NCBI GenBank assembly: GCA_951406725.2 | Contig: OX597823.1 | Location: 34,410,001 to 34,474,000, forward strand | Origin: Octopus vulgaris | Lineage: Eukaryota | Direction: 5' to 3' | Length of the DNA: 64,000 bases | Shown here: piece by piece, positions 3,171-62,425 of the stretch | Layout: each line of letters starts with the position of its first letter | Numbering within the stretch: position 1 is the first letter of the stretch | Position numbers and translations under genes: made by a program | The notes under the pieces: model-generated | The model's database searches: none | What the model was told of the DNA's origin: nothing | Seen by the model: only the letters and a program-made list of their open reading frames with translations

Positions 3171-4019
3171 GTAAGTGCAGGCCACATGTTGATTGTCTTG
3201 GGACATATCAGAAGGGAAATCCAACATATTAACTTTCTTTACTTATGTTTGTGAATAAGGGCAACATTCAGAAGAATTCAAAATCTGAATATCATTTCAT
3301 TTATGAGGGTAAATTGCTTCACATGACTATCATGTATGAAAGCTTTCCAACATATTCTACTGTTGGATGCTGCTAAACACTTTGTCATTATTTAATGAAT
3401 CGATGATAAGTTTGTCTGCTGGTGCAATTCTTGGTTGTCAGGCATTTTGAACTCGACCCTGTAAGCTAACACAAATTAATAAATTCTTCAAAATTGTGAA
3501 TTTTTGCAAAAGTGATTTGTGTATATAATGAGAATTATTTGTCAATTCTGATCCCTTTGTCTCGTAATCAATTGTGTTCCAAGTGACCATCCTGCCTTAT
3601 ATTCAGATATAATGAATCCCAAATTACATCATCCTATTAATCCTTCATTTACAAAATAATAACAACATGATCTAACTGTTATTCAAGAGTTGGCTGCGAA
3701 GTCTTAAATATCTGGGTCATGGACAGAATAGGTTGAGAGCCAAATCTGAACAATTTGGAAAATAGAAGTCTGACAGAGACACCATATAAAGTATAGACAG
3801 TCTTATAGATACATTATATGGACTGTTTTATCCTTCTGAGGAAAACATACAGCATATATATATATATATATATATATAAAATACAGTGTACATTTAAACA
3901 CATTGAGAGGTTTCCATCATAGGAATCCTTTACGCTAGAAAGAACAGCTAAAGTCCAAACCACTAATTAGGGATAAATTCTCAAATGGAATGAAAAATAA
4001 AAACATTCACCATCTCTTT

Positions 4020-4088
4020 CCTGGACCATGGTTCCTGACTTATTTTAGTAAATAAAATAATTTACCAGTCGAAGTCTTCATCAACAGG
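4020..4088 (-). ncRNA. minimal type I hammerhead ribozyme-like motif (GAAA mutated to GGAA)
   Basis: Minus strand reads cctg-TTGATGA-a-gactt...aagtc-a-GGAA-ccatgg-TC-cagg: stem I, extended stem II and palindromic stem III. Confidence 0.65.
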
Positions 4089-4199
4089 GATGCCAAAGAT
4101 TAAATATATAAACAACAAGGCCAATCCAGCATGTGCCTCATTGCTTATACATTTTAATTTTTTTCAAATCCACCGTGCAAGCACAGTCTTTTTGGCATC

Positions 4200-4268
4200 C
4201 CTGTTGATGAAGACTTTGCCTGGTAAATTATTTTATTTACTAAAATAAGTCAGAAACCATGGCCCAAG
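4200..4268 (+). ncRNA. minimal type I hammerhead ribozyme-like motif (cleavage triplet mutated)
   Basis: cctg-TTGATGA-a-gactt...aagtc-a-GAAA-ccatgg-CC-caag. Its mutations differ from those in the left arm. Confidence 0.65.
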
Positions 4269-5227
4269 AAAGAGATGGTAAATGTTTTTATTTTTTATTC
4301 CCTTCGAGAATTTATTCCTAATTAGTGGTTTGAACTTTAGCTGTTCTTTCTAGCTTAAAGGATTCTTATGATGGAAACATCTTAATGTGTTTAAATGTAC
4401 ACTGTATTTTATATGAATAATATATAGTCTATTGACTAAATTTTCTATATGCTAGGCCATTGGTAGTAAAAATTTCTAAACTCTTTATTACCCTGATATT
4501 ATTATATATATATATGCGCATGGATATATGGGTACAGGATGTCACAACAATAAACAACATAAAATACGAAAACAAATGAGTTTAATATGCAAACAGTGAG
4601 AGGAACAAATGGAAAACAGGACAAGTAACATAAAGAACGACCTTTCATCAGTTGTAGGCTGTCTATCTACTCCTCATTTCAAGCACTGAACGACAATATG
4701 AGTCTTCGAAGTCAGTTGCTCCCATAAGTACCAAAATAAAATTTGGGATTTATAGAAAGTCAAAGTTGGAAACAAAAACAGGACAGTGGAGACATACAAG
4801 GAAACCAAACGAAAATATACATGGAGGGTCGTTAGACCAGAACGAGGGTAAAATAGTGAACGCTGGAGAAATATTTTCTTTGAAAAGAGAAAAGATAGAA
4901 GAAAGAGAGAGAGGGAAGATATGTGCTGTCCTTAGAACAATCCGGAAAGAAAAGAAAGATGATCACGTGAGGAAAAGAAAGATGGACGATGGTCACGTGT
5001 AAGCAACGATAGAGAGAAAAAGAGAAAGAAGGAGAGAGAGTGAGAGAACAGGAGAAAGAGAGAGAGAGAAAACGTGAAGGGGAGAAAAAAGGGAATTAGA
5101 GAAAGGATGAGAGAGATAACGATCTTTTGTGCCATTGTTGTTTTCAATAAGAAAGAACTAGGGAAATTTAATGAAAATGCTTCGCAAAACTGACAAACAA
5201 CAATAAAAATTCAGTGATATATTGATT

Positions 5228-6872: not shown

Positions 6873-7353
6873 TAAAGTGATAGTATGTTGTCAACTTAAT
6901 GTTACAGTCCCATGAAAGGGAAGAATGCTACTGTTATTTAGCCCTGGGAAACACCGTTTCCTGTTGGACTTGACACATTTCCTGTGTCCTTATGTTTTCA
7001 AAGTGGAGACAAGCACCTCCACTCAGCAAAGTCAGCATTCAGAGACTAGTTTCAGAGTCATTGCTCATTATCAGTCTGGAGTAGCATGGCTTGCTAGCAG
7101 TCGATGCCTATCCGCCTTTGAAACTACTCTCTGGATGCTAGCTTTGCTGTGTGGGGGTGCTTGTCTCCACTTTGAAAACAAAAGGAGACAGGAAATGTGT
7201 TAAGTCCAACAGGAAATGGTGTTTCCTAGGGCTAAATAACAGTAGCATTCTTCCCTTTCCTGGGCCTGCCACATTAAGTTGGCAATATACTATCACTTTA
7301 TCGTGCTGCTACTGCATAAATCTCTCTGAGAGATTTAGAAATATATTATTTCT
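6873..7353. mobile_element. foldback element 2 (~185-bp arms plus unpaired right tail)
   Basis: 6873-~7054 is inverted relative to 7119-7300. Tail at 7301-7353. A second copy of the arm and tail is at 26004-26180. Confidence 0.88.
7040..7078 (-). ncRNA. minimal type I hammerhead-like motif (core CUGAUAA)
   Basis: Minus strand reads caga-CTGATAA-t-gag caatga ctc-t-GAAA-ctag-TC-tctg. Confidence 0.7.
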
Positions 7354-8509: not shown

Positions 8510-8587
<78 letters not shown>

Positions 8588-8589
<2 letters not shown>

Positions 8590-9623
8590 ACTGATAGGAA
8601 TAAGCATATATGGTTTGTAATCCCCTTTGGTAAGCAGATTAGAACTAACCTCCCCCTCATGTTTAGACAAGCCATCGCCAATAACTTCCCCAGAAATTCC
8701 AAATATTACTCCACGGTTAACTCGCATAAAATTAGGATAGCTTTCTCCAACACTAAAAACCTCGCCCAGATAATCGCCTCCCATAATAATAGGCTACTTA
8801 CTAAGACCCTATCACCTTTTCCGGAGGCACAGCCTCTTCCGCTCCCGGTTTAATGCTCAGTAGGAATAATTATAGTAGTAATAATGATATGAGAGCCAGT
8901 ACAGTGACACATAATCTCAGCTCCAGCCAGGGAGTACCCACTAGGGGTATAGTTATAAATAGGGGTGTTGTGGTTGAAGGTAACAATGGGAATAGGGTAG
9001 AGAGCCCCAATAGCATCCCCAGCATCATTTCCCGCTATAGCAGCACCACGGGCAGTAGCAATGACAGCACTTTGATAGATAGTGGAGAATCAGGGGTTAT
9101 TCCTATAGTTAATAGTGACGTAGTGGAAAATAGAGTAGTAAGCGGCTGCAGGTCTCGGAACGAATATAGTGACAGGAACGCAGTTCTAATTTCAGAAACT
9201 AATCCTAGCAGAATTAGATTCACGTCGGCGAACTCCAAGATCAAAAACGCCGTCTACCAATGCAAGGTTTACACGGACTCAGATGTCTTCACTTATGTAG
9301 GGGCCTCATCCTCAAGATTGTCTTTGCGTGTCTCCAACCATTACGCAACTTTTCGGGACATGAACAAGCGCCAGACCATGGGACTCAGTAAGCTAATATG
9401 GCGACTGAAGGATACGAACTTAAGCTACAGGCTGGAATGGTCAATTTTGTCGGTGGTACTCCCATTTGATAGGGGCAGAAGGCAGTGCAACCTTTGTGTC
9501 TCCGAACTCTTCCATATTTTGTTTGCCAGAGGCCGGATGGTAAACGGGCTTTTACAGTCGGCTTTTGATGCCCCCATTGGCGGCGTTACACTTATCTGGC
9601 TTTTAAATAGCGTTTATAAATAA
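8588..9623 (+). pseudogene. Penelope-like ORF C-terminus: RT-EN linker and GIY-YIG endonuclease, frameshifted near 8850
   Basis: IWFVIPFGKQIRTN...NNFP...IRIAFSNTKNLAQIIASHNNRLL resembles the Neptune IIWFNPPF...SHN linker. AVYQCKV...TYVG...LRVSNH...LSKLIWRLK...WSIL...CNLCVSE is a GIY-YIG domain. Confidence 0.82.
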
Positions 9624-10200
9624 TACCGGCACCCATAGCCCTTGGTAACAAATTCTGAAATAGCCTTTAAGATATCTACGATTAACCACTGCAAGGGGAA
9701 TTACTCCTGTAAGACAAACGGGGCTTGGTTTTTTCACAGCGGGGGTTTCCTTGACAAGGCAGGCTTAGATGAACACACACACACATAAAACATGATATAT
9801 ATATATTTTTTTTTCTGCCACCCAACGGTTATCACGGCAGTAGCCACTGACAGCCGAACGATCAAATGCACACACGTACACAAAAAATGTTTTCTACCTC
9901 TACGCCAACACACACATATATAGAACAGTATACACACACACACGTCTCTAAGTAGATTTTTTCTCGCCCCTTATAAAACATCCAATATTCCTTAAATAGT
10001 CAGAACTTTATTCTCGGTCACAAAGAACATCTACGCACCCTCACCCACATGATTGACCGATGCCTGACCCGTTGAATTCTTCAGCCACCGGTTCTCAACA
10101 TACACTGATAAACAGTTTCGCCATGGGCTCTTACGAGCATAGTTCGATTTGTTTTTGCTCCGCCTCTGTTCTGTTTTTGTTTTTCCAACGGATTTCCTAT

Positions 10201-10289
10201 TTTCTTCCTGAAGAGAAAGACACAATATGGTCCCATTATTCCATCGGATTTTGGTAATTTGTGCCTTTCGAAACACGTGTAGAATGAAA
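10201..10289 (+). ncRNA. type I hammerhead ribozyme with canonical core in the PLE 3' region
   Basis: ttc-CTGAAGA(10208-10214)-gaaag acacaa...ttgtgc ctttc-GAAA(10270-10273)-cacgtg-TA-gaa. Predicted cleavage after GUA at 10281. Confidence 0.8.
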
Positions 10290-10749
10290 TAAAACGATTT
10301 CTGTTCAATCTGCGTTCAGCTCCATTTCTTCAATTCACCAATAATGTTCTAATTTCAATTATCCGCACCAACGCACGGTTGCAACACCATATGGTTGTAC
10401 CTCCAACCGTGCTGTTTTACTGCTGTGATTTTTGCTACTAAGGTATCGGTTAAACTTTTGATTAATCTACTACAAGATTATTCATCTTTCTATTTCACAT
10501 AATATATATATATATATATATATATATAGATAGATAGATACACACACACATACATAATACATACATACATACATGTGTGTGGGAGTATGTGTGTGTAAAT
10601 GTGTATGTGTATGTGCCTGTGCGAATGTGTATGTGTGTGTGTGTCTCTCTCTCTCTCTCTCTATATATATATACAGATAGATAACTAAATAGATTGATAG
10701 ACAGATAGATAGATACACACACACACACATTCACACATACACATACATA

Positions 10750-13041: not shown

Positions 13042-13682
13042 GTAGGTGGCATTACATTATAAATCTACACACCACATGTATATATGTAATCACAATAGAA
13101 CTAGATGGTTAAGATGTTTACTTTCTAACCACGATGTCCCAGGGCTTGGCATCTTGGCCAAATATCATTTTCTGTAGCCTCAGGTTGACCCATACCTTGT
13201 GAATGAAATTGGGTGAATGGAAACTGCAAGGAAGCCTGTCTAGGCAACTGCATCTGTAATTTAAAAGGTACAACCTTGCTATACCCCGAGCCACAATGAT
13301 TCTGCCTGAAAGTTATGCTAACATAAAAGAGTAAAAGAGTAGCAATGCATGTCTTCTGTGGAAAACCCAGCCACTTATATCCTAATTCAGGAGCAGGTAA
13401 TTTGGTAGATCAAACAATTGAATCCCCATCATCAAACAACAGATTCACCACACACACATACACACATATGTATATGTGCGTGTGTGTATGTGTGTGTGTG
13501 TGTGTATGTGTGTGTGTGTGCAATAACTTTTTTTGCCATGATAACATGGCTGTTGTATAAAGAATAATGTTACTACATTTTAATTCCAGGAAAACGTCTT
13601 TTCCAGCTGGTTAATGACACACAACCTGTGTCCACTATATTATGAGTAAGGGAGCAAATCACTCCCTTCCAGCTTGGAAATA

Positions 13683-13726
13683 CCAGTAGACTATGGTTTC
13701 TGGGTTTTACCTTTCATCGGTACTGG
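13683..13726 (-). ncRNA. minimal type I hammerhead-like motif
   Basis: Minus strand reads ccagta-CCGATGA-a-aggt aaa accc-a-GAAA-ccatag-TC-tactgg, with a 6-bp stem I. Confidence 0.75.
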
Positions 13727-13853
13727 ATAGCTGCCTGCTAGAGGTGGCAGTCAATCATCCCTACTCACAATATATGAACAGAGAAGTGGCAGACAGCCAC
13801 TGATCTCGTAACGAGCAAAACAGTTAGTTTTAACCCCAGGAAAACGTCTTTTG

Positions 13854-13896
13854 CAGTACCAGTGAAGGATAAAGTCCCAGAGACCATGGTCTACTG
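13854..13896 (+). ncRNA. degenerate hammerhead-like motif (right arm)
   Basis: cagta-ccagtga-a-ggat aaa gtcc-ca-gaga-ccatgg-TC-tactg. Confidence 0.55.
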
Positions 13897-14136
13897 GTCT
13901 TGCTAAGTTGGAGGGGAGTGAATCGCTCCCTTACTCACAATATATTCGACACAGGTTGGGTGAGGTTAAGCAGCTGGAAAAGATGTTTTCCTGGGGTTAA
14001 AAAGTAGTAACATTATTCTTTGTAGAACAGCCATGTTTTAGTGACGAAAAAACATTACCGTCCACTATTGTTACTACTTATATCCCATTTACAGATTTTA
14101 AAACTACCTATTTTGCTTGGGTGAGTGTGTATATAT

Positions 14137-18032: not shown

Positions 18033-18681
<649 letters not shown>

Positions 18682-18695
<14 letters not shown>

Positions 18696-19170
18696 AAATG
18701 AAGAAAATGCTGACAAAATAATTTAAGTAAGGGAGAGTGTATTTAATTAGGTGAAAGTTCTTTTTACCGGTTGCGCATTTGTTATGCTTATCAAAAGATA
18801 TTTTTTAAGAGAGATAGAGTTCCTTTCTGATAGATTTTTTTCTCTTATCTGACTTTATGTTGGGTTTGCTGTCTCTTATACATGAAAAAAGAGGCTCCAG
18901 AGTTGTTTAATCTTAAACAACTCTGGAGCCTTTTTTCACATATAAGAGACAGCAAACCCAACATAAAGTCAGATAAGAGAAAAAAATCTATCAGAAAGGA
19001 ACTCTATCTCTCTTTAAAAAATATCTTTTGATAAGCATAACAAATGTGCAACCGGTAAAAAGAACTTTCACCTAATTAAATACACTCTCCCTTACTTAAA
19101 TTATTTTGTCAGCATTTTCTTCATTTCCTTTTTTATATATCACAACTCGTGTTCCACATCTCCTTTTTTA
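18682..19170. mobile_element. foldback element 5: near-perfect ~460-bp palindrome plus short tail, within (TA)n
   Basis: Arms 18682-18910 and 18913-19140 around a 2-nt apex (tc), with only a few mismatches. Confidence 0.9.
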
Positions 19171-19192
19171 AATATATATATATATATATATA

Positions 19193-26003: not shown

Positions 26004-26180
26004 AAAAATAGAAATAATATATTTCTAAATCTCTCAGAGAGATTTATACAGTAGCAGCACAATAAAGTGATAGTATGTTGTCATCGTAATGTGACAGTCC
26101 CATGAAAGGGAAGACTGCTATTGTTATTTAACCCTGGGAAACACCGTTTCCTGTTGGACTTGACACATTTCCTGTGTTCA
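26004..26180 (-). mobile_element. second copy of the foldback-2 arm and tail
   Basis: Colinear with 6873-6990 and with the reverse complement of the right arm and tail up to 7353. Confidence 0.85.
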
Positions 26181-27058
26181 TTCTTTAAGTTATGAAGTTA
26201 GTGCTATAAATGGATTGCACAATTATCACATGTATGTTGTATTCGATTGCAACATATTTTCCCTTTATTAACTGGGAATAAGGACATTATCACATCATTT
26301 TCACTTTGTTCATGCTTTGCTCGTATAATTGCATTCTGTTAGAATTTGAATAGAAATTTCTCTGCTGTTTCAGAGTTTCATTTGTTGTTTGTAACTTTCT
26401 CACTGGAAAGAGACCCTATACTGGGTACTAGGATTTGAACTCCCGTTCTTTCAGTTATCAGGCCAGTGCCATGAATGGACCATGCAATTATCATGAGTAC
26501 ACTTTATCAATCGACTGAATGGCAGCAGATTACGCCATAAGGTCTGATCAAAAGTGAACGTCCTCGAGATCTTCACACTTCTCTCTAGTTACAAGCAGTT
26601 TAGTGCCAAGAATCTTATCAGAGGTTGAGAGCAATCAAGGAACACACAGTTCACCTTTTGCCACAAACAATCCTGGCCAGAGCAGAGACTTAGCAAGACT
26701 TGGCAGACATATATCTTCTTGTCTTCATACCAAGAAAAGAGTAAAAACAGTTAAAGTTGTTCCTGTCTCAAGAGTAAGCCATTAAGGACTGTACAATGTA
26801 GTCACTATGAAAGTTGATCCCTCTAGGCTAAGTCTATAGTGAGTATCTGAAAATCTCTGTGTAAATACAGCAGAACCATTCCATAGATAAATGGATTAGA
26901 CAATGTTTCTTAGCTTTGTTCCCATTTTCAATACACACACCTCAACCTAATTTATAATAATCGTACATCAAAAGCATGGCAACACTGGTCAATAGCAACA
27001 CTTCGGGAGACATGTATGTATGTATGTATGTATGTATGTATGTATGTATGTATGTATG

Positions 27059-27243: not shown

Positions 27244-28533
27244 CGAGGGACGTTCAATAAGTAATGCCTCTGACCCACTTGCAGTTGTTTGATCTAGCTG
27301 AAATTTTGTATGTGCAATCATATATATCTCTATAGAGTAAGTGGCAAATTACAGCTCTGAATTAATTGTGGTTTCTGATTTACAGGTGTTTGAACCGAGT
27401 CAAGTGTGAAATGGAGCCTGTTGAGTGTCGAGCAGTGATCCGGTTTTTGTATTTGAAAGGACGCACACCACGGGAGACTTTTGATGAAATGAAAGTAACT
27501 TATGGTGATGATGCCCCATCATATGACCTTGTAAAACGCTGGCATCGTGAATTCAAACATGGTCGGAACTCTGTGGAAACAGCTCCCAGATCTGGTCGCC
27601 CCTTCTGCCATTGATGAGGCATCTGTCCATCAAGTTGAGGCTGCCATTTTGGAAGATCGACGCATAATTATTCGCCAAATAGCCCATGAGGTCAAGATTA
27701 GTACCGGGTCTGTGAAAACTATCATTCATGACCATTTGCATATGCAAAAGGTGTCTGCCAGATGGATTTCCAGGTTGCTCACTCCTTTCCAGAAGCAAGA
27801 ACGCGTCGAGTGCTCGAGGGTGAATTTGGAGATGTGCCAAGAAGATGAGTCAAAATTTTTCAAAAGACTGATTACACAGGATGAAACCTGGGTCCATCAC
27901 GATGATCCAGAGACCAAAGCCCAGTCAATGCAGTGGAAGCACCGTGACTCACCCCCTCCAAAGAAGGCAAGGGTGCAGCCCTCCGCTGGCAAGGTCATGC
28001 TCACAGTCTTCTGGGACCAGGACGGAGTAGTGATGACAGATTTCTTGGCAAAGGGTACCACAATTGCAGGAGCCTATTATGCTTCACTTTTGAGGAAATT
28101 AAGAGAAGTTATCAAAATCAAGAGGCGGGGCAAGATCAGCAAAGGCATCCTCCTCCTGCAGGACAATGCTCCGGTCCACAACTCGCTTGTCGCCAGATCA
28201 GAAGCACAGGCGTATGGCTATGAACTCTTCCCCCATCCCCCTACTTTCCTGACCTTGCACCCTCTGATTTTCACCTCTTCCCAGTCATGAAGTTGTTTTT
28301 GAAAGGAAAGCGTTTCCCAGATGATGCAGCCTTGATTTCTGAAGTCACGTTGAGGTTGGAGGACCAAGCTGGGGTCTTCTACAAAAACGGTCTCCAGAGC
28401 TGCATCAAACAATGGGAGAAATGCGTAACTCTGGGTGGTTCCTATGTAGAAAAAGACTAATAACTGTGCCAAGTTTCGTTGCTCTACTGCTATGGGAAGT
28501 GGGTCAGAGGCATTACTTATTGAACGCCCCTCG
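27244..28533 (+). mobile_element. full-length mariner transposon (~1.29 kb), nested in an RTE tail
   Basis: TIRs cgagggacgttcaataagtaatgcctctgaccc / gggtcagaggcattacttattgaacgcccctcg. TA on both sides (27242-27243 and 28534-28535). Confidence 0.95.
27411..28460 (+). pseudogene. mariner DD34D transposase, disrupted
   Basis: MEPVECRAVIRFL...RSGRP, WISRLL (WVPHEL-like), ITQDETWVHH, LQDNAPVH and YFPDLAPSDFHLF. Frameshifts near 27600 and 28240, and a stop near 28351. Confidence 0.92.
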
Positions 28534-31940: not shown

Positions 31941-32224
31941 GCGTTATCAATCAGGTGGTACTATCATTGACCATTATACCTAACACATTCATATACACTT
32001 GGAAGTAGGGAGACTTTCAATGTGTAAATGATCTCAGAAGAAAGTTATCCCCATAGACAATACGTGTGAAAATATGTTGTGGACAGGTGTATTATCAAAG
32101 TCAGCTTAAGCTATATTTTAATATTAAACATATGCAGAAGAATACAGTTCTATATTTAAGAGATGAGGAATTATTTACATTATTTACATTTGACAGATAT
32201 TTGTCCTCATCTTGTTTGTTGTTA

Positions 32225-32268
32225 ACACAATGTTTCAGCTGATATACCCTCCAGCCTTCATAAGGTGT
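32225..32268 (-). ncRNA. degenerate minimal hammerhead (left arm)
   Basis: Minus strand reads acac-CTTATGA-a-ggctg gagggtatat cagct-GAAA-ca-TT-gtgt. Confidence 0.65.
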
Positions 32269-32349
32269 CTTGGGGAAATTTTGAACCTGGGTTCTCATTC
32301 CTAAGGTATTTTTCCAATGTAATTATTATTATTATTATTATTATACCCA

Positions 32350-32425
32350 CAGGCATATGGCGTAGTGGTTAACAGCGTGGGCTACTAACCCCAAGATTCC
32401 AAGTTCGATTCCAGGCAGTGGCCTG
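32350..32425 (+). promoter_or_regulatory. tRNA-derived Pol III internal promoter (SINE head)
   Basis: A box TGGCGTAGTGG at 32358-32368 and B box GTTCGATTCC at 32403-32412. Anticodon-like arm between them. caggc/gcctg closing stem. Confidence 0.8.
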
Positions 32426-32528
32426 AATAGTAGTAGTAGTAGTAGTAGTAGTAGTAATAACAATAATATTTATAATAACATTGACAAATACCTTAGGAAT
32501 GGGAACCCAGGTTCGAAATTTCCCCAAG

Positions 32529-32572
32529 ACACCTGAAGAAAACTGGAGGGTATATCAGCCGAAACGTTGAGT
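32529..32572 (+). ncRNA. minimal hammerhead with canonical core (right arm)
   Basis: acac-CTGAAGA-a-aactg gagggtatat cagcc-GAAA-cg-TT-gagt. Stems carry point mutations that are intact in the left arm. Confidence 0.7.
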
Positions 32573-33048
32573 TAACAACAAACAAGATGAGGACAAATAT
32601 TCGTCAAATGTAAATAATGTAAATAATGTAAATAATATATACAGAATCACTCCGAATATCTAGCTATAATCAGAGTGGAGTTTAATGTTTCAGATGAGCT
32701 CAAGACAATCAGGTAACAACAGAAGCAGTTGATTGTCCAGTATTTAGGGACTAATCTTAACATTCTGAGTTTCAAATCTGGCAAGTTCAAGTTCCACTTG
32801 GTTGTTCATAGCCGCAGGGTCCACTAAAGTAATGCTTATATGCTGTAAACAACCCATGTGCTCAGCCTGTAGAAAGCAAGATGTGTGCAAGTCTATTACA
32901 TCAACCCCAGTAGTCAACTGGTACTTATTTTAATGAGCTCAAAAATGTCAATAAATCAAGCACCAGTTGAGAATGAAAGGTAAAGTCAACCTCGACAGAA
33001 TTTGAACTTAAAATGTAAAGATAGATGCAAAGCTGCCGGGACGACGAC

Positions 33049-35808: not shown

Positions 35809-36904
35809 GGGTTACGATATTATGGAAATAAAAAAAGGATACATAAAGCATAATATCAATAATGTCAATGAGTACAAAAGATACGAGGGAGAAAAAATAA
35901 TTAAGGAACAATTACAGAAAGAAATACATGGTGAATTCTTTAAACACCTGAATGAAGAAGCAGTATCAAAAAGATACTCATTGAAATTTATAAAACAAAG
36001 CAAATAGAGACTCGAACATTGCTTAAAAAATAATTTTCATTTTTAACCTCGTATATAGAACGCTGTAGAGATTTTGTAAAATACGCACTAGGGATTTTAT
36101 ATTCTGATCCCCAATCCTTGTGAGCATGCCCTGGCACTTCACCATCATCTCTCTCCTGCTCCCTTGCACTCTTGCTCTCTCCCACTCTCCCTCTTTCTCT
36201 TGCTCTCTTCCACTCTCTTACTGACCTCAGTCTTGATCACTCTTTCTCACCCTCTCTCTCTCTCACCATGTATCTCCTCTTCAGCAAGATACCTATTTCT
36301 GTCTCTCTGTCACACTCTAACATTTCATCATCTGGCACAAGATCATCTCCAGTACCACATCCTCTCTCAAAGGTTCTTTGTCTTGCAAATTACTTGGTGA
36401 CCCTGCCAGTGCTGGTGCCACATAAAAAGCATTGAGTCTAAACTATGAAGTGGTTGACATTTGGAAGGGTATCCAACTGTAAAAACCATGGCAAAACTGA
36501 CTTTTTCTATGCTGGTGCCATGTAAAAAGCACTCAGTCAACTCCATGGAGTGAGTAAAGCTTGATGTAGTCTTCTGCTGAGCCAACCCCTGTCAAACTGG
36601 CCAACCCATGCCAGCATGAAAAGCAGACACTAAATGTTGATGATAATGATGATAATGATGAGGATGATGATTATGATGATGATGATATATATATATATAT
36701 GTATGTATGCATGTATGCAAAGTTATCTAAAATCCATACATCAGAAAGAATAAGCACTCATATATTTATCGATAGAGTGAGAATGTTAATCAAAGTATAC
36801 AGTATTATTGATCCATTTCAGCTGATCTTACCAAGTGGTTTCACACAGTGTGAAGCCATTTGTTAAGATCAGCTATAATGGATCTATAATACTGCATACT
36901 ATGA

Positions 36905-36939
<35 letters not shown>

Positions 36940-38989: not shown

Positions 38990-39555
38990 ATACCTTGCAA
39001 CTGAATCACCTTCTTCATTTTCCATAGCCGGGCTATTTCGTATTTAAGAGGGTTGTGTCTATCCATTTTCTTCACTTCATTCTTGACTATTCATGGGTCA
39101 AAGGGGCATGCAACATCAACTATACTGTACATATGATGCTGCTTGTCCACCACCACTAGGGCCAGTCTGTTATGCTTTAGCACCTGATCTGTTTGGATTG
39201 AGAAATCCCAGAAGATTTTACTAGTCTCTGACTCCGCCATCCTCTGCAATTTGTGCTCATACCACATCTTACCTCTGTCTAGTCTCCACTTTTTGCACAG
39301 TTTCCAATGGAGCACTTTCACTACCTGGTCATGTTGCTACAACTTGTAGTGGTTTGGGGCAAGTCCAGAGTATTCGTTTGTGATATGGGCAATGGTTTCA
39401 TCCACTCTATTGCAGATGTGGCACAGCAGAGACACTTGTTCATTGCTAAGGCTGATCCCTCCCCAGTTCGTGGCCAAAGTTTGGTCTTGCATTGCCAGTA
39501 TATAATGCTCTCGGTCTCTTTTTTTTAGGGTTCCTTTCATCAGCCAACCCCCACC
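38990..39555 (-). mobile_element. R4/Dong-like RLE retrotransposon fragment
   Basis: GWLMKGTLKK..QDQTLATN..CHIC....ETIAHI, then LHWKLCKKW..WYEH..IFWDFSIQTD..IVDVACPFD. Frameshifted. Confidence 0.8.
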
Positions 39556-39766
39556 TATGTGTAACAGTGGGAGTTTAATGGGTTTAATGTTAGAGTCGAA
39601 CCTGAATGGTTTGTTATACATCAAATGCATCCTATCTTATGTATTTACATACATACATAGGTGCATGGATGCATACATACACACATACATATGTACATAC
39701 ATATATGCATATATACATACATACTTACATACATACATGCGTGCATACAACATGCATACATACATG

Positions 39767-41162
39767 TGGAAAACTGCCAGTGTCATTCCTCTGTTCAAAA
39801 AGGGCGACCGCACATCACCTGTCAACTATCGCCCAGTCAGTCTCACTAGCTGTATTGCAAAACTGATGGAATCGTGTGTCAGAGAAACACTCTGGAACTT
39901 CTGGAGCTCTCACAGTCTCATCCGACCCTCACAATATGGATTTGTCCCTAACTCCAGCTGCAGTGATCAGCTCGTCGAGTTCCTTGAGGACATTACTCAG
40001 ATCACTGACAGTGGCTCATGGGTGGATGTTGTCTACCTTGACTTTGCTAAGGCTTTCAACTCTGTGCCACACAAAAGGCTTATGGTGAAACTCTCTGCAA
40101 TGGGTGTGAGTGATGACCTTTTTAACTGGTTGAAATCCTTCATTCTCAGCCAAAAGGAGGTAGTCACAGTTCTAGGACAGCATTCTACACCATATGAGAT
40201 GTCATCGGGTGTACCACAGGGATCTGTCCTTGGTCCTCTCTTGTTTGTGACATACATTAATGACATAGATGCCAATTTAAAGAATGCCACAGTATTGAAA
40301 TATGCAGACGACATCAAGCTGTACCTTGAAATCAAGAGGACAGATCCTGATGTCTACAACTCTTTCTTGCAATCAGACCTAGACACAATGCAGCAATGGA
40401 TCACTGACTGGCAACTGAAACTGGCTGTGGACAAGTGTACAACCATGCATTTTGGGAGAAAAAACCCTGCGTCCACATACTCCCTCCACAACACTGATAT
40501 CAAGAAATCCTCTTGCGAGTGTGACCTAGGCATCACTGTCAGCAGTGATTTGCGTTGGACAAAGCATATCTCTAAAATTGTCAAGAAGGCCGAGGGTGTC
40601 TTGGCATCACTCAGCAAGACTTTTGTTAGCCGCTCTCCAGCCATCTATTTAAAACTGTATACAGCTATGGTACGACCACACTTGGAATTCGCATCATCAG
40701 TTTGGAACCCCTATCTTGCTCAGAACATTGACCTCCTGGAATCTGTCCAGAGACGTGCAACCAAACGCATATCCTCCATCAGACACCTACCATATTCTGA
40801 GTGCCTTGTTTCCCTGGGCATGGATTCACTGAAGCTCCGGCATCTGGCGACGGACTTGGTAAACACCCACAAAGTTATCAACCACCTCACCAACAACAAC
40901 ACTGAACACCTTTTTGATCTCCATGTGTCTAACACACGTGGACATGCCTACAAAGTCAGAAAACAACACAACTTCCATGACTTTCGGAAACATTTTTTCA
41001 TGCTCAGAGTTGCTGAAGCATGGAATAAACTGCCTGCATCAGTTGTTGACTGCCATGACACTGCATCCTTTAAGGCCCTCATGCTTTCCGAAATCCGTCG
41101 AAACTACACCTGATTATATATACACTTTAGATGAGTTGTAGTGCACCTGAGCTCTGTACACA

Positions 41163-41200
<38 letters not shown>
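39767..41200 (+). mobile_element. 5'-truncated CR1-clade LINE with uninterrupted RT frame
   Basis: Open from WKTASVIPLFKKGDR..NYRPVSLTS to the stop at 41113. (ATT)n tail. Confidence 0.95.
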
Positions 41201-41895: not shown

Positions 41896-43264
41896 ATATA
41901 TTTTCCAGAATTCCACCTCACAAGAGGAGTCAGAGATGAAGAGTTCAAGAAAAAAGAAACGGTCAGGATGGAAATCCATAAAGAAAGGTGTGTCAGAGGT
42001 ATGTTGACATATGCTGACATATAAACAGTGTTACAGAGCTGTATGTGAATGTGTGTGTGTATGTGCAAATATCTTGTACCATATTTGCTCTGGCCCCTGT
42101 TTTTCATACCCTACAACTCTCCTCTCCTTATTCTCCTACCATAAAGTCTTGCTTCCTCACTCGAGGCTTGTTGTCCTGAAAACTGCACGGTAAGCAAACT
42201 TGTGTTGGTGGCATTAAGAAGCATGGACTGTTACAGCATGGACTAGTTGCTTCCTAATGCCAACCCACTTTCAGCCTGTAAGGTGGTTGGCATTAAGAAG
42301 ACAACAGACTTTCACACAGTTTCTGCCTACAAAATTCACTTCCATGGCATTGGTCAGCCTGGGGCTATTGTAGAAGATACTTGTTCAAAGTGCCACGCAA
42401 TGGGACTGAACCCCAAACCATGTGGCCGCAAAGTGAGCTTCTTAACCATTCAGCCACCATGCCTCTGCCTAGGTTTTAATAAATTGTACAATGTATTAAC
42501 TAACCATAAACAAGATTAAGCAATATGCTATAAAATGTCAAAGCTACAGCTGCTCTGATTTAGTGACAATAAGAACTATATCTCTCTCTCACTTACTTTC
42601 TATCACTCTCTCTGACTCTCGATCACTCTCTCCCCCTCAACACACATTTATAGCAAAGACGGAAGAAAATGAAACCTCTAGAAAATGGTAACTCTGCCAC
42701 AAACATTGATCGATAGACTTAATCTATTGTCTGCTTTAACATCATTATCAACACTGCTGTTGAGCAGGATATCAGTTCCTTCTGAAAGCCTTAAAAGGGG
42801 TCATAGGCACCACCTTTCTTCAATCCTTAAAAAAACACAGAAAAGTTGTAGAGATTTATTTCATTCAAAGTACAGATGCCTCTCTTTTATTAACACTTAA
42901 CAGACAGAGTGAGTCAGTTGATACAGAGGTTTTGGGAAGGAATGGTTATAAGAGCGATATCCTCATGTATGGCCTTTGACCAAATTTAACATCTGACAAT
43001 AACTGTCAGCACTTAAGTGAAACATGAGCATAAGATGGTAAACTGAATGTTGAACATGTAGTAGACATGTTGTAGACATGTAGTAGACATATTACTAAAA
43101 CACTTGGACAATTTTATGACTAAAAATAGAAAATCTAAATTCTCTAAATTTGAATTTTGCCTTTGACTCAACCCAGCTTTCCACTTTAACCGTTTTATTT
43201 ACTCACCCACCTCAGACCACCCTAGCTTTATAATACAATCTTCCCATTTTAAAGAGATCTAAAT

Positions 43265-51722: not shown

Positions 51723-51880
51723 GCTGTCCGACAAATGGGAAAGTGAAACTCTGAGTAGCAGTTTTTTGTGATATTTTTGAGATGTTTTTGCAGATTTAAT
51801 AAAAAAGCATATTACTCTACCTCTGGTATTTGAGTACTATTTTACCCACCTTGCTTCACATTTATGTGCTTACTCTGGTA
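51723..51880 (+). mobile_element. hammerhead-tail family D copy
   Basis: ctgt-CCGACAA-at gggaaa gt-GAAA-ctc t gag-TA-gcag at 51724-51761, then a tail shared with 16141 and 56205. Confidence 0.7.
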
Positions 51881-55892: not shown

Positions 55893-56085
55893 TCGCCATG
55901 GATAGATTGCTAGCCACTACACATTCTTTATTTTCTCTCCTTGTTTCTTTCTGTGTTCCTTTCTGTGGAAGAGCATAGGCTCGAAATGTTAGAGACTTTT
56001 TCACTTCCCGAGCATTATACTAATACATCTGTTTGTTGTCTAAACCGCCTGTCTTCGTCTTTTTTTTTTTTGTGAATTCTCCCTA
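55893..56085 (+). mobile_element. hammerhead-like family E copy
   Basis: cttt-CTGTGGA-a-gagc atag gctc-GAAA-tg-TT-agag at 55959-55994. Confidence 0.65.
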
Positions 56086-56204: not shown

Positions 56205-56404
56205 ACTGGAGTAAGCACATAAATGTGAAACAAGGTGGAAAAAAAAGAGTACTTAAATACCAGAAGTAGAGTAATATGCTTTATTTAAAAGTACCAGAAA
56301 TATAACAAAAACTTTTACTCAGAGTTTCACGTTCCTGTTCGTCGAACGGGAACGTGAAACTCTAAGTAAAAGATTTTGTTATATTTCTGCTACTTTTAAA
56401 TAAA
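56205..56404. mobile_element. foldback element 7 (family D): ~62-bp arms with the apex inside the hammerhead core, plus left tail at (TA)n
   Basis: 56280-56341 is inverted relative to 56343-56404. Apex gttcg-t-cgaac. Confidence 0.85.
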
Positions 56405-60383: not shown

Positions 60384-61278
60384 ACATGCATGCACATACA
60401 TGCACGCACACACACACACACACACACTAACACATGTACACATACACACATGCATGCTCTCACACACATACACCCCCCTACACACACACTGGCTTGCTTG
60501 ATACCGGGTGATGGATTAAAAATTTAAATTATCAAATTGTTTTGTTGTTGCTTAAATTCCAGCAATGGAACACTGCGTCATCAACCCATAAAATGTATTG
60601 ATGGAAAGAAAAATATTGATAAACATCAGGACATGTCAGAGTGACAAAGAAATTAGGAAAGTACCATGTGGTCGTGAGATGTGCTAGAAACAACAGCTAA
60701 ATCTCCCTTAAACCACCTTTTTGCCAATAAGTTATTTTGAAATAACAAACAAAGACAAATTACATATTTGGGCAGTCCATATTTCAAAACTGATTAAATG
60801 AAAGCATCAAAAAAAGACGAAATTTTAGGATTTATTGGGAGATGGGGAATTAATGAAAAAGTCTTTTTAAATTTCACTATTGCTTTTAAATTAAATTTCG
60901 TTTTCTGTTTGAAAATAAAGGAATTGGGAATTGCCGTGTTAATCACTGATTCCCCAATTTTTCTTTTAAACTTTCAAGGTTTTTCCCATTGTTCGGGTGT
61001 AGTGCAAAAAACAAAAAAAAATTGGCCTAAGTTGAGATAATACATAAATTTTCACAAGCTTTGTTTTCTTTTACTGTCAAGGCATCTGCCATTGTTTTTA
61101 AGTGTATAGTGCAAGTATAAAAAATAATTGTCATGAATTGTCAAAAATGTTTTTGCATGGGTATGGGGGAAAAAAGTTTGGAAAACCTCATCAAAATGGA
61201 GAGAATCCAACTTATGTAGTATTCCAAGGTCTGCCAAGGCACTTTATGGTGAAATTAGAACGAGATACTCAACCAGTA

Positions 61279-62025
61279 TAATAATAATAATAATAATAAT
61301 TGTGTACAGTGCTCAGGTGCACTACAACTCATCTAAAGTGTATATATAATCAGGTGTAGTTTCGGTGGATTTCGGAAAGCATGAGGGCCTTAAAGGATGC
61401 AGTGTCATGGCAGTCAACAACTGATGCAGGCAGTTTATTCTATGCTTCAGCAACTCTGAGCGTGAAAAAATGTTTCCGAAAGTCATGGGAGCTGTGTTGT
61501 TTTCTGACTTTGTAGGCATGTCCACGTGTGTTAGACACATGGAGATCAAAAAGGTGTTCAGTGTTGTTGTTGGTGAGGTGGTTGATAACTTTGTGGGTGT
61601 TTACCAAGTCCGTCGCCAGACGCCGGAGCTCCAGTGAATCCATGCCCAGGGAAACAAGGCGCTCAGAATATGGTAGGTGTCTGATGGAGGGTATGCGTTT
61701 GGTTGCACGTCTCTGGACAGTTTCCAGGAGGTCAATGTTCTGAGCAAGATAGGGGTTCCAAACTGATGATGCGAATTCCAAGTGTGGTCGTACCATAGCT
61801 GTATACAGTTTTAAATAGATGGCTGGAGAGCGGCTAACAAAAGTCTTGCTGAGTGATGCCAAGACACCCTCGGCCTTCTTGACGATTTTAGAGCTATGCT
61901 TTGTCCAACGCAAATCACTGCTGACAGTGATGCCTAGGTCACGCTCGCAAGAGGATTTCTTGATATCAGTGTTGTGGAGGGAGTATGTGGACGCAGGGTT
62001 TTTTCTCCCAAAATGCATGGTGGTA
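61279..62025 (-). mobile_element. 5'-truncated CR1-clade LINE
   Basis: Near-identical to 40440-41200 on the opposite strand. TGG>TAG stop at 61440. (TAA)n tail. Confidence 0.93.
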
Positions 62026-62425
62026 TATATATATATATATATATACATACATACATTCATATATATATATTATAGACATGCACACACACACATTCATGCA
62101 TTACATACAATACATGTGTACATATGAACAACGTACATATGACAAACAACAGAAATCTCGATTAATACATAGATAGCTACAGTGATTGATAGGGAGAAAG
62201 CAATGGTTGCAGACAGACAGAAGAGAGAAAAGAGAAGAAAGGTGAAATAGAGAGTGTGTGTGAGAAAGAGAGGGTGAGAGAGAGAGAGAGAAAGAGAGAG
62301 GTATCAGCTTGAATTAATGTATATATAAGAACAATAATGACACATGCTTTCTTCATTGAATGAGTTCATCTGAAACTGACCATAAATTAGGACACTGTCA
62401 CTCATACACGCACACACCACACACA

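What the first reader, a model, noticed from the sequence alone, without database searches (positions are those of the whole stretch)
8588..10500. Neptune-type Penelope relic with an intact canonical hammerhead: likely type of trans-acting partner
The GIY-YIG coding relic is followed about 580 bp downstream by a hammerhead with unmutated CUGAAGA and GAAA, a long stem II, palindromic CACGUG stem III and a GUA site (10201-10289). It sits in (TA)n like most of the foldbacks. This directly links this hammerhead style to a PLE in this genome.
Basis: partly seen in the sequence, partly recalled or inferred. Interest (0 to 1): 0.7.

Follow-up and report, generated by a model that had tools for sequence, protein, structure and literature searches.

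The report
Octopus Penelope retroelement fragment with hammerhead
This is the broken tail end of a common jumping gene, probably from an octopus, that carries a real self-cutting RNA motif as its known relatives do; its one unusual trait is that its family has lost a small zinc-binding segment thought to help aim these elements at TA repeats.

Summary
A GIY-YIG endonuclease remnant (9252-9610) lies about 600 bp upstream of a type I hammerhead with an intact core (10201-10289, cut site after 10281), and both ends sit in TA runs.

The label is wrong. The endonuclease lacks Neptune's CCHH and linker zinc fingers and has the CxxC-E-N-CxH end of the Hydra clade (Craig et al. 2021). A 3' hammerhead and (TA)n targets are already published for that clade, including an Octopus family.

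This is a young, 5'-truncated, twice frameshifted, RT-less copy of a multicopy family. A sister family in Octopus sinensis has a Hydra-type RT.

The 'trans-acting partner' idea is unsupported. This copy cannot act in trans, it shares no sequence with the window's foldbacks, and their hammerhead remnants are of other styles.

What departs from described Hydra elements:
- The CxCX5C linker finger, present in 29 of 29 relatives of 600 aa or more, is replaced by a Cys-free motif behind a Ser/Asn-rich insert, here and in close relatives.
- The hammerhead's stem II arm is 55 nt, against at most 26 nt in the published table.

Verdict: a modest new variant of a known kind.

The parts
8546..8586 (.). 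(TA)n run at the 5' junction; its last two bases also fit the element (2-nt microhomology at the truncation point)
   Evidence: contigs of other copies align from 8585 and go on upstream with non-TA sequence (tables 7 and 8)
8587..8817 (+). Remnant of the post-thumb linker of the RT-EN protein (IWFVIPFGK.. stands where Hydra has IWFNPPY); the element is 5'-truncated here and no RT is left
   Evidence: 82% identical over 76 aa to P0151 residues 237-312; no RT hit in the window with four PLE proteins that reach into the RT or thumb
8816..8820 (+). Frameshift 1: one base short, in a T run, relative to other copies
   Evidence: table 4 (extra base in all four runs)
8820..9176 (+). Ser/Asn-rich low-complexity insert of about 119 aa, open frame
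   Evidence: similar, poorly conserved inserts in P0151 and P0001
9177..9251 (+). Cys-free motif (N.VLISE.NP.R.RF.S.NS.I.N) that aligns with, and replaces, the Hydra CxCX5C..C linker finger
   Evidence: alignment A1; the same motif in 6 of 214 stored proteins; low model confidence here (pLDDT 49-74 over residues 1-30)
9252..9610 (+). Hydra-type GIY-YIG endonuclease: VY 9252, YVG 9294, R-H 9327, CxxC 9486, E 9504, N near 9543, CxH from 9569 (after frameshift 2), stop 9608-9610
   Evidence: 1,943 relatives at E up to 0.001
9562..9566 (+). Frameshift 2: one base short, in a T run, just before the CxH motif
   Evidence: tables 3, 4 and 7
9611..10501 (+). 3' UTR / pseudo-LTR region of about 890 nt (about 205 nt in Hydra-1_Obim, counted by hand)
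10201..10289 (+). Type I hammerhead: core 10208-10214 and 10270-10273, 55-nt stem II arm 10215-10269, palindromic stem III 10273-10280, predicted cut after 10281
10502..10528 (.). (TA)n run at the 3' junction

Best explanation
The 1.9-kb stretch is a recent, 5'-truncated, dead-on-arrival insertion of a multicopy Penelope-like family derived from the Hydra clade, in what is most likely an octopus genome. Mechanism (inferred from PLE biology, not shown here): an intact copy elsewhere made an RT-EN protein; its GIY-YIG domain nicked a (TA)n microsatellite; the RT copied the element RNA from near its 3' end and stopped just past the thumb region, joining to the target over 2 nt. The hammerhead is the usual 3' motif of such elements. 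As a monomer it should be nearly silent, because stem III cannot close. It should cut only when two copies pair through the 8-nt palindrome, as in head-to-tail (pseudo-LTR) transcripts, trimming them to unit length (folding computed; cleavage inferred). The family differs from described Hydra elements in having lost the linker zinc finger (shown at sequence level) and in its long stem II.
For: Hydra motifs: none of the top 150 relatives has cysteines of the CCHH type between GIY and YIG; 137 of 150 have CxxC..E and 101 of 150 N..CxH; the window has both. The sister protein P0151 (O. sinensis XP_036366068.1) carries RT motifs 4-7 with GLYRDD and continues into the same linker and EN. Among its relatives of 600 aa or more, 26 of 29 have DKT/DKS, 23 of 29 RWK-like, 28 of 29 YRDD, none DKG. 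Multicopy and truncation: 3,196 and 3,616 contigs laid in two DNA runs, with summed depth rising from 5' to 3' (X15 about 124,000 to about 800,000; not a copy number). Two contigs go on 156 and 472 nt upstream of 8585. Youth: contig X2-21 differs at 16 bases and 5 gaps over 1,463 nt, and X2-23 at none over 10153-10510. Both frameshifts are absent from the contigs of the two putative RNA runs (table 4). Hammerhead: active monomer fold about 0.0007 of the ensemble, palindrome duplex -10.3 kcal/mol. 0 of the 15 listed variants between 10134 and 10350 fall in the 56 nt of core, stem I and proximal stem II (P about 0.01).
Against: No single record spans RT to EN to hammerhead for this family. EN and hammerhead are joined only by contigs that overlap by 30 nt, below the tool's 31-nt bridging rule. 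RT is shown for a sister family (82% identical in the linker, 55% in the EN), not for this one. The defining CxCX5C motif is absent, so it is not a plain Hydra member. The tree had no Neptune outgroup, used a quick search, and P0151 is a long branch. 76 variant rows were hidden, so the conservation test is partial. Both frameshifts lie in homopolymers and could be assembly errors. In a Poseidon element, hammerhead cleavage was not needed for insertion in vitro (PMC11167929, passages), so the processing role is open.
Confidence: 0.85

Rival explanations
1. One reading: a Neptune-type element that represents the autonomous partner mobilising the window's hammerhead foldbacks in trans.
For: PLEs can mobilise other RNAs in trans (stated in PMC8557442 section 15). 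Some foldbacks carry hammerhead remnants: 7074-7044 on the minus strand with a Hydra-like layout and one core change; 32533 plus and 32264 minus with a minimal stem III. Three foldbacks touch (TA)n.
Against: Neptune's CCHH cysteines and CX2-5CxxC linker are absent. No shared sequence with 10 foldback stretches (best E 0.52). Inverted hammerhead-bearing 3' ends 100-700 bp apart are the known by-product of PLE insertion itself (PMC4209133; PMC8557442 Fig. 2 legend), so each foldback more simply derives from its own PLE family.
Confidence: 0.06
2. The family is a non-autonomous or endonuclease-only element that keeps an open EN frame but borrows an RT.
For: No RT was seen for this exact family. 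One relative (P0001) is annotated from a Met just before the same linker motif. The putative RNA contigs keep the EN frame open.
Against: P0151 joins RT, linker, insert and EN in one frame, and P0153 covers the late RT and thumb through the linker. Contigs run on upstream of 8585; read by hand, the loose end keeps the frame open and in register with P0153.
Confidence: 0.06
3. The hammerhead is an independent repeat (retrozyme-like) or a chance motif next to the EN relic.
For: Summed depth peaks over the hammerhead (X1 1.1 million at 10270-10334), and a diverged contig (X2-24, 37 differences over 10205-10453) shows related 3' ends in other subfamilies.
Against: Chance is excluded. It is not tandem and has no junction marks. 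Contigs are continuous from 8725 to 10182 and from 10153 to 10510. The position matches published Hydra hammerheads.
Confidence: 0.03

Closest known systems
Hydra clade of C-terminal EN+ Penelope-like elements (Craig et al. 2021, PMC8557442), including Hydra-1_Obim of Octopus bimaculoides
   Same: C-terminal GIY-YIG without CCHH; CxxC and CxH around the conserved E and N; YRDD-type RT in the sister family; 3' type I hammerhead with a palindromic stem III (the same ACAC/GTGT arms as Hydra-1_cRog and Penelope-17_HM); (TA)n target, listed for 26 of 27 families.
   Different: No CxCX5C linker finger; about 120-aa Ser/Asn insert; IWFVIPF in place of IW(F/Y)NPP; 55 nt between the hammerhead core boxes, against at most 26 nt in the 26 Hydra rows of File S2 (hand count); 3' UTR about 890 nt against about 205 nt. 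A different family from Hydra-1_Obim (compared by eye).
Neptune clade PLEs
   Same: C-terminal GIY-YIG, 3' hammerhead, microsatellite targets.
   Different: Neptune has the CCHH motif with cysteines between GIY and YIG, a CX2-5CxxC linker and RY(V/I)DD; none is found here or in the sister RT.
Metazoan PLE hammerheads and non-LTR retrozymes (PMC4209133; bioRxiv 10.64898/2026.07.22.740005)
   Same: Type I hammerhead with an unstable palindromic stem III, expected to work as a dimer.
   Different: A single copy in a coding element, not a tandem non-coding repeat; much longer stem II.

Membership tests
Hydra clade PLE | C-terminal GIY-YIG endonuclease | tested here: met
   fold match to I-TevI Z 9.6; EN follows the linker; RT is upstream in sister P0151
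Hydra clade PLE | CCHH motif absent | tested here: met
   one Cys only between VY and YVG; 0 of 150 relatives with the CCHH-type pair
Hydra clade PLE | CxxC before the conserved E and CxH after the conserved N | tested here: met
   CxxC at 9486, E at 9504, CxH at 9569 in the shifted frame
Hydra clade PLE | CxCX5C motif in the linker | tested here: not met
   1 Cys in 214 aa of linker; also absent in P0001, P0002, P0151; present in 29 of 29 relatives of 600 aa or more
Hydra clade PLE | RWK and DKT motifs in the RT N-terminus | not testable with these tools
   region missing from the window copy and from P0151; among P0151's relatives of 600 aa or more, 23 of 29 have RWK-like and 26 of 29 DKT/DKS
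Hydra clade PLE | Canonical 3' hammerhead | tested here: met
   stem II is longer than in any published Hydra row
Hydra clade PLE | Insertion into (TA)n | tested here: inconclusive
   met for this one copy (TA runs are 1.4% of the window); other copies could not be retrieved with flanks
Hydra clade PLE | RT phylogeny within the Hydra clade | tested here: inconclusive
   P0151 groups (SH-aLRT 99) with P0026, P0161, P0154, P0155, three of which have the finger, among Hydra-type proteins only; no outgroup, quick search, long branch
Neptune clade PLE | CCHH zinc finger with cysteines between GIY and YIG | tested here: not met
Neptune clade PLE | CX2-5CxxC linker finger | tested here: not met
Non-LTR retrozyme | Non-coding tandem units, each with a type I hammerhead | tested here: not met
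   one hammerhead, coding remnant upstream, no second copy in the window
Type I hammerhead ribozyme | Self-cleavage at the NUH site | not testable with these tools
   only contigs were available; a putative RNA contig reads through 10281 unchanged

The most novel reading that the evidence does not exclude
An undescribed, recently active Hydra-derived lineage in octopuses has replaced the linker zinc finger by a conserved Cys-free motif and still inserts into (TA)n. It would be a natural counter-example to the proposal that this finger aims PLE endonucleases at microsatellites, and it carries the longest stem II seen in a Hydra-type hammerhead.
Probability: 0.5. Interest if true: 0.45.

Novelty: new variant of a known kind. 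Interest (0 to 1): 0.3.

Why it matters
The finding as posed, a hammerhead in a PLE inserted in (TA)n, is textbook and already reported for Octopus. What remains of value is the missing finger. Craig et al. tie (TA)n targeting to the linker domain (sections 11 and 15; the proposal goes back to Arkhipova 2006, which I know only through their citation). A young family without the finger allows a direct test, by counting target sites and comparing endonucleases. Chlamys elements already target microsatellites without that linker, so the surprise is moderate. The near-consensus, apparently transcribed hammerhead is also a clean substrate for the open question of what PLE hammerheads do.

Tried and rejected
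No assembly is held for this window, so copies could not be counted or their flanks read.

Rfam found no hammerhead. Pfam found nothing significant for the window frames or for seven relatives. Plain folding of 10195-10295 is no more stable than shuffles (z -0.09); the evidence lies in the motif, not the energy.

Two word-index protein searches for longer relatives returned nothing. This is weak evidence, since P0151 exists. Foldseek gave no match at E up to 0.001, though GIY-YIG nucleases ranked first. The Atlas gave three clusters at 0.95, one with GIY-YIG on 11% of members, a lead only.

A metagenome scan with the hammerhead pattern gave 23 loci, 0 of 23 related to the element by blastn or tblastn. 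The careful tree did not finish and the script failed; the quick tree was used, and 5 of 66 proteins without a YxDD match were dropped. P0010 is a chance repeat hit and was ignored.

Literature searches and text searches within two cephalopod repeat papers found no description of a finger-less Hydra lineage. Repbase, Dfam and the supplements of those papers were not seen and may hold it under a 'Penelope' name. Look-ups of earlier findings by place, by sequence and by the first word list gave nothing.

Full report
Observation. The stretch 8587-10501 lies between two TA runs. It holds a 77-codon open frame (8587-8817), a shifted frame through a low-complexity insert into an endonuclease (ORF 8805-9623), a second shift near 9562-9566, and about 890 nt of non-coding tail. 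A descriptor scan finds one exact-core hammerhead in the whole window, at 10208-10281. Shuffled windows give 0.025 such hits on average (40 shuffles), and 0 of 500 shuffles of the element give one. Stem II is firmly predicted. The full active fold is rare in the monomer (about 0.0007), while the palindrome forms an 8-bp duplex of -10.3 kcal/mol between two molecules. The model of the coding part matches GIY-YIG nucleases best (I-TevI Z 9.6, EndoII Z 9.3).

Which clade. Craig et al. 2021 (PMC8557442) describe Neptune as having a CCHH finger, with cysteines between GIY and YIG, and a CX2-5CxxC linker. They describe Hydra as lacking CCHH, with a CxCX5C linker, CxxC and CxH around E and N, canonical hammerheads and (TA)n targets. 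I saw its abstract, introduction, sections 11, 12 and 15, searched passages, and supplement parts 2, 52, 53, 58 and 59 of 59. The window protein has one Cys between VY and YVG, CxxC before E, and CxH after N in the shifted frame. Of the 150 best relatives, 0 have the CCHH pair, 137 CxxC..E and 101 N..CxH. So it is Hydra-like and not Neptune. An Octopus Hydra family with a hammerhead in (TA)n is in their tables. By eye it is a different family.

Host and RT. The closest named proteins come from Octopus sinensis, which suggests an octopus host; the species was not determined. P0151 is 82% identical over the linker and 55% over the endonuclease, and it begins with RT motifs of the Hydra type. Its 62 relatives are Hydra-type. 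In a quick tree of 61 proteins it groups at SH-aLRT 99 with proteins of Argonauta and O. bimaculoides and two unnamed ones. That tree has no outgroup and P0151 is a long branch.

Other copies. 19 of 24 listed runs hold half or more of the element's sampled words; 4 were laid. Thousands of contigs map in the two DNA runs, with summed depth rising towards the 3' end, as expected for 5' truncation; this is not a copy number. Contigs continue 156 and 472 nt upstream of the window's junction, so the junction is a truncation point. In the two putative RNA runs (RNA status is guessed) the contigs lack both frameshifts. One differs from the window at 16 bases and 5 gaps in 1,463 nt; the next covers the hammerhead with no difference. 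They overlap by 30 nt, so the EN-hammerhead link is supported but not shown on one molecule. Of 11 listed coding substitutions, 7 change the residue, which fits neutral decay of a young copy. The frameshifts sit in homopolymers and may be assembly errors. The 15 listed variants around the hammerhead avoid the core, stem I and proximal stem II (P about 0.01); 76 variant rows were not shown. A contig reads through the cut site, which fits a weak monomer, but contigs cannot show ends.

Foldbacks. I listed inverted pairs in the window and examined 9 foldbacks and one solo arm. None resembles the element's 3' 900 bp (best E 0.52). Hammerhead-like remnants occur in three of them: 7074-7044 (minus; short stem II, one core change), 32533/32264 (minimal stem III) and, weakly, 13720. 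These three are not in (TA)n. The three foldbacks that touch (TA)n showed no hammerhead-like motif at one core mismatch. Inverted hammerhead pairs 100-700 bp apart are known in PLE-bearing genomes (PMC4209133, parts 1-2 of 4 read). The window copy has no RT. A trans role for its family is not excluded, but nothing here points to it.

What is unusual. The CxCX5C finger is present in 29 of 29 relatives of 600 aa or more. It is also found in 42 of 69 endonuclease hits with enough upstream sequence, many of the rest apparently being frameshifted fragments. It is absent here, and a Cys-free motif aligns in its place. The same motif occurs in 6 of 214 stored proteins (P0001-P0004, P0007, P0151), so it is a lineage trait and not decay of this copy. 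Three of the four nearest proteins in the tree keep the finger, which favours secondary loss. The hammerhead has 55 nt between its core boxes, against at most 26 in the 26 published Hydra rows (hand count). Long arms do occur in two spike-moss PLEs in the same table, and the same core-and-stem pattern turned up in 23 unrelated metagenome loci. My searches found no description of this lineage; repeat databases were not available.

Mechanism, with status. Shown: anatomy, motifs, multicopy state, truncation, RT in a sister family. Inferred from established PLE biology: nicking of (TA)n and target-primed reverse transcription. Computed: the need for a dimer. Untested: cleavage and its role. In a Poseidon element, hammerhead mutants still inserted in vitro and no reads ended at the site (PMC11167929, passages only). 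The retrozyme preprint (part 1 of 5 and passages) and two cephalopod repeat papers (PMC13282606, PMC8967140; passages) add context only; the former lists 31 recently active Penelope-like families in O. vulgaris.

Verdict. The feature is real, misnamed and mostly ordinary. It works like a Hydra element. Because one defining motif fails, I file it as a Hydra-derived variant and not as a plain member. Interest 0.3.

Noticed in passing
window 6873-7300 and 26009-26182: Foldback whose arms begin at a hammerhead remnant of Hydra-like layout (7074-7044, minus strand, one core change); a solo copy of the arm lies at 26009-26182. Likely inverted 3' ends of another PLE family.
   Followed up: partly
window 32170-32627: Foldback with a minimal hammerhead on each arm (32533 plus, 32264 minus) and a tRNA-like or SINE-like stretch between the arms (by eye).
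   Followed up: partly
window 18682-19140: Nearly perfect 459-bp hairpin (97%) next to (TA)n, with no hammerhead-like motif and no other copy in the window; an RTE-like RT fragment follows at 19172 (family name recalled).
   Followed up: no
window 3869-4419, 13528-14052, 18035-18101, 36788-36906, 42246-42305, 56280-56404: Further foldbacks of unrelated sequence; the one at 56280 matches 51724-51779.
   Followed up: no
window 55963-55990: Solo minimal-hammerhead remnant with one core change, probably the 3' end of another PLE family.
   Followed up: no
window 39506-41185, 61278-62069, 1753-2714: CR1-like LINE RT fragments (family name recalled from the translation); two copies are 98% alike over 748 nt in inverted orientation.
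   Followed up: no
window 27535-28287: Mariner-type transposase fragment (recalled from the translation).
   Followed up: no
L001-L023: 23 metagenome loci hold the same hammerhead core-and-stem II pattern with 53-81 nt matches, unrelated to this element; many may be real hammerheads with a long stem II.
   Followed up: partly
P0001, P0002, P0151, P0153, P0161: Several Octopus RefSeq proteins with names such as 'serine/threonine-protein kinase dyrk1', 'myb-like protein I' and 'GATA zinc finger domain-containing protein 14-like' are fragments of Hydra-type retroelements, apparently misnamed from their Asn-rich inserts.
   Followed up: partly
window 9931-10453 (X2 records 22 and 24): A second subfamily, about 85-90% alike, shares the 3' UTR and hammerhead region.
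   Followed up: no
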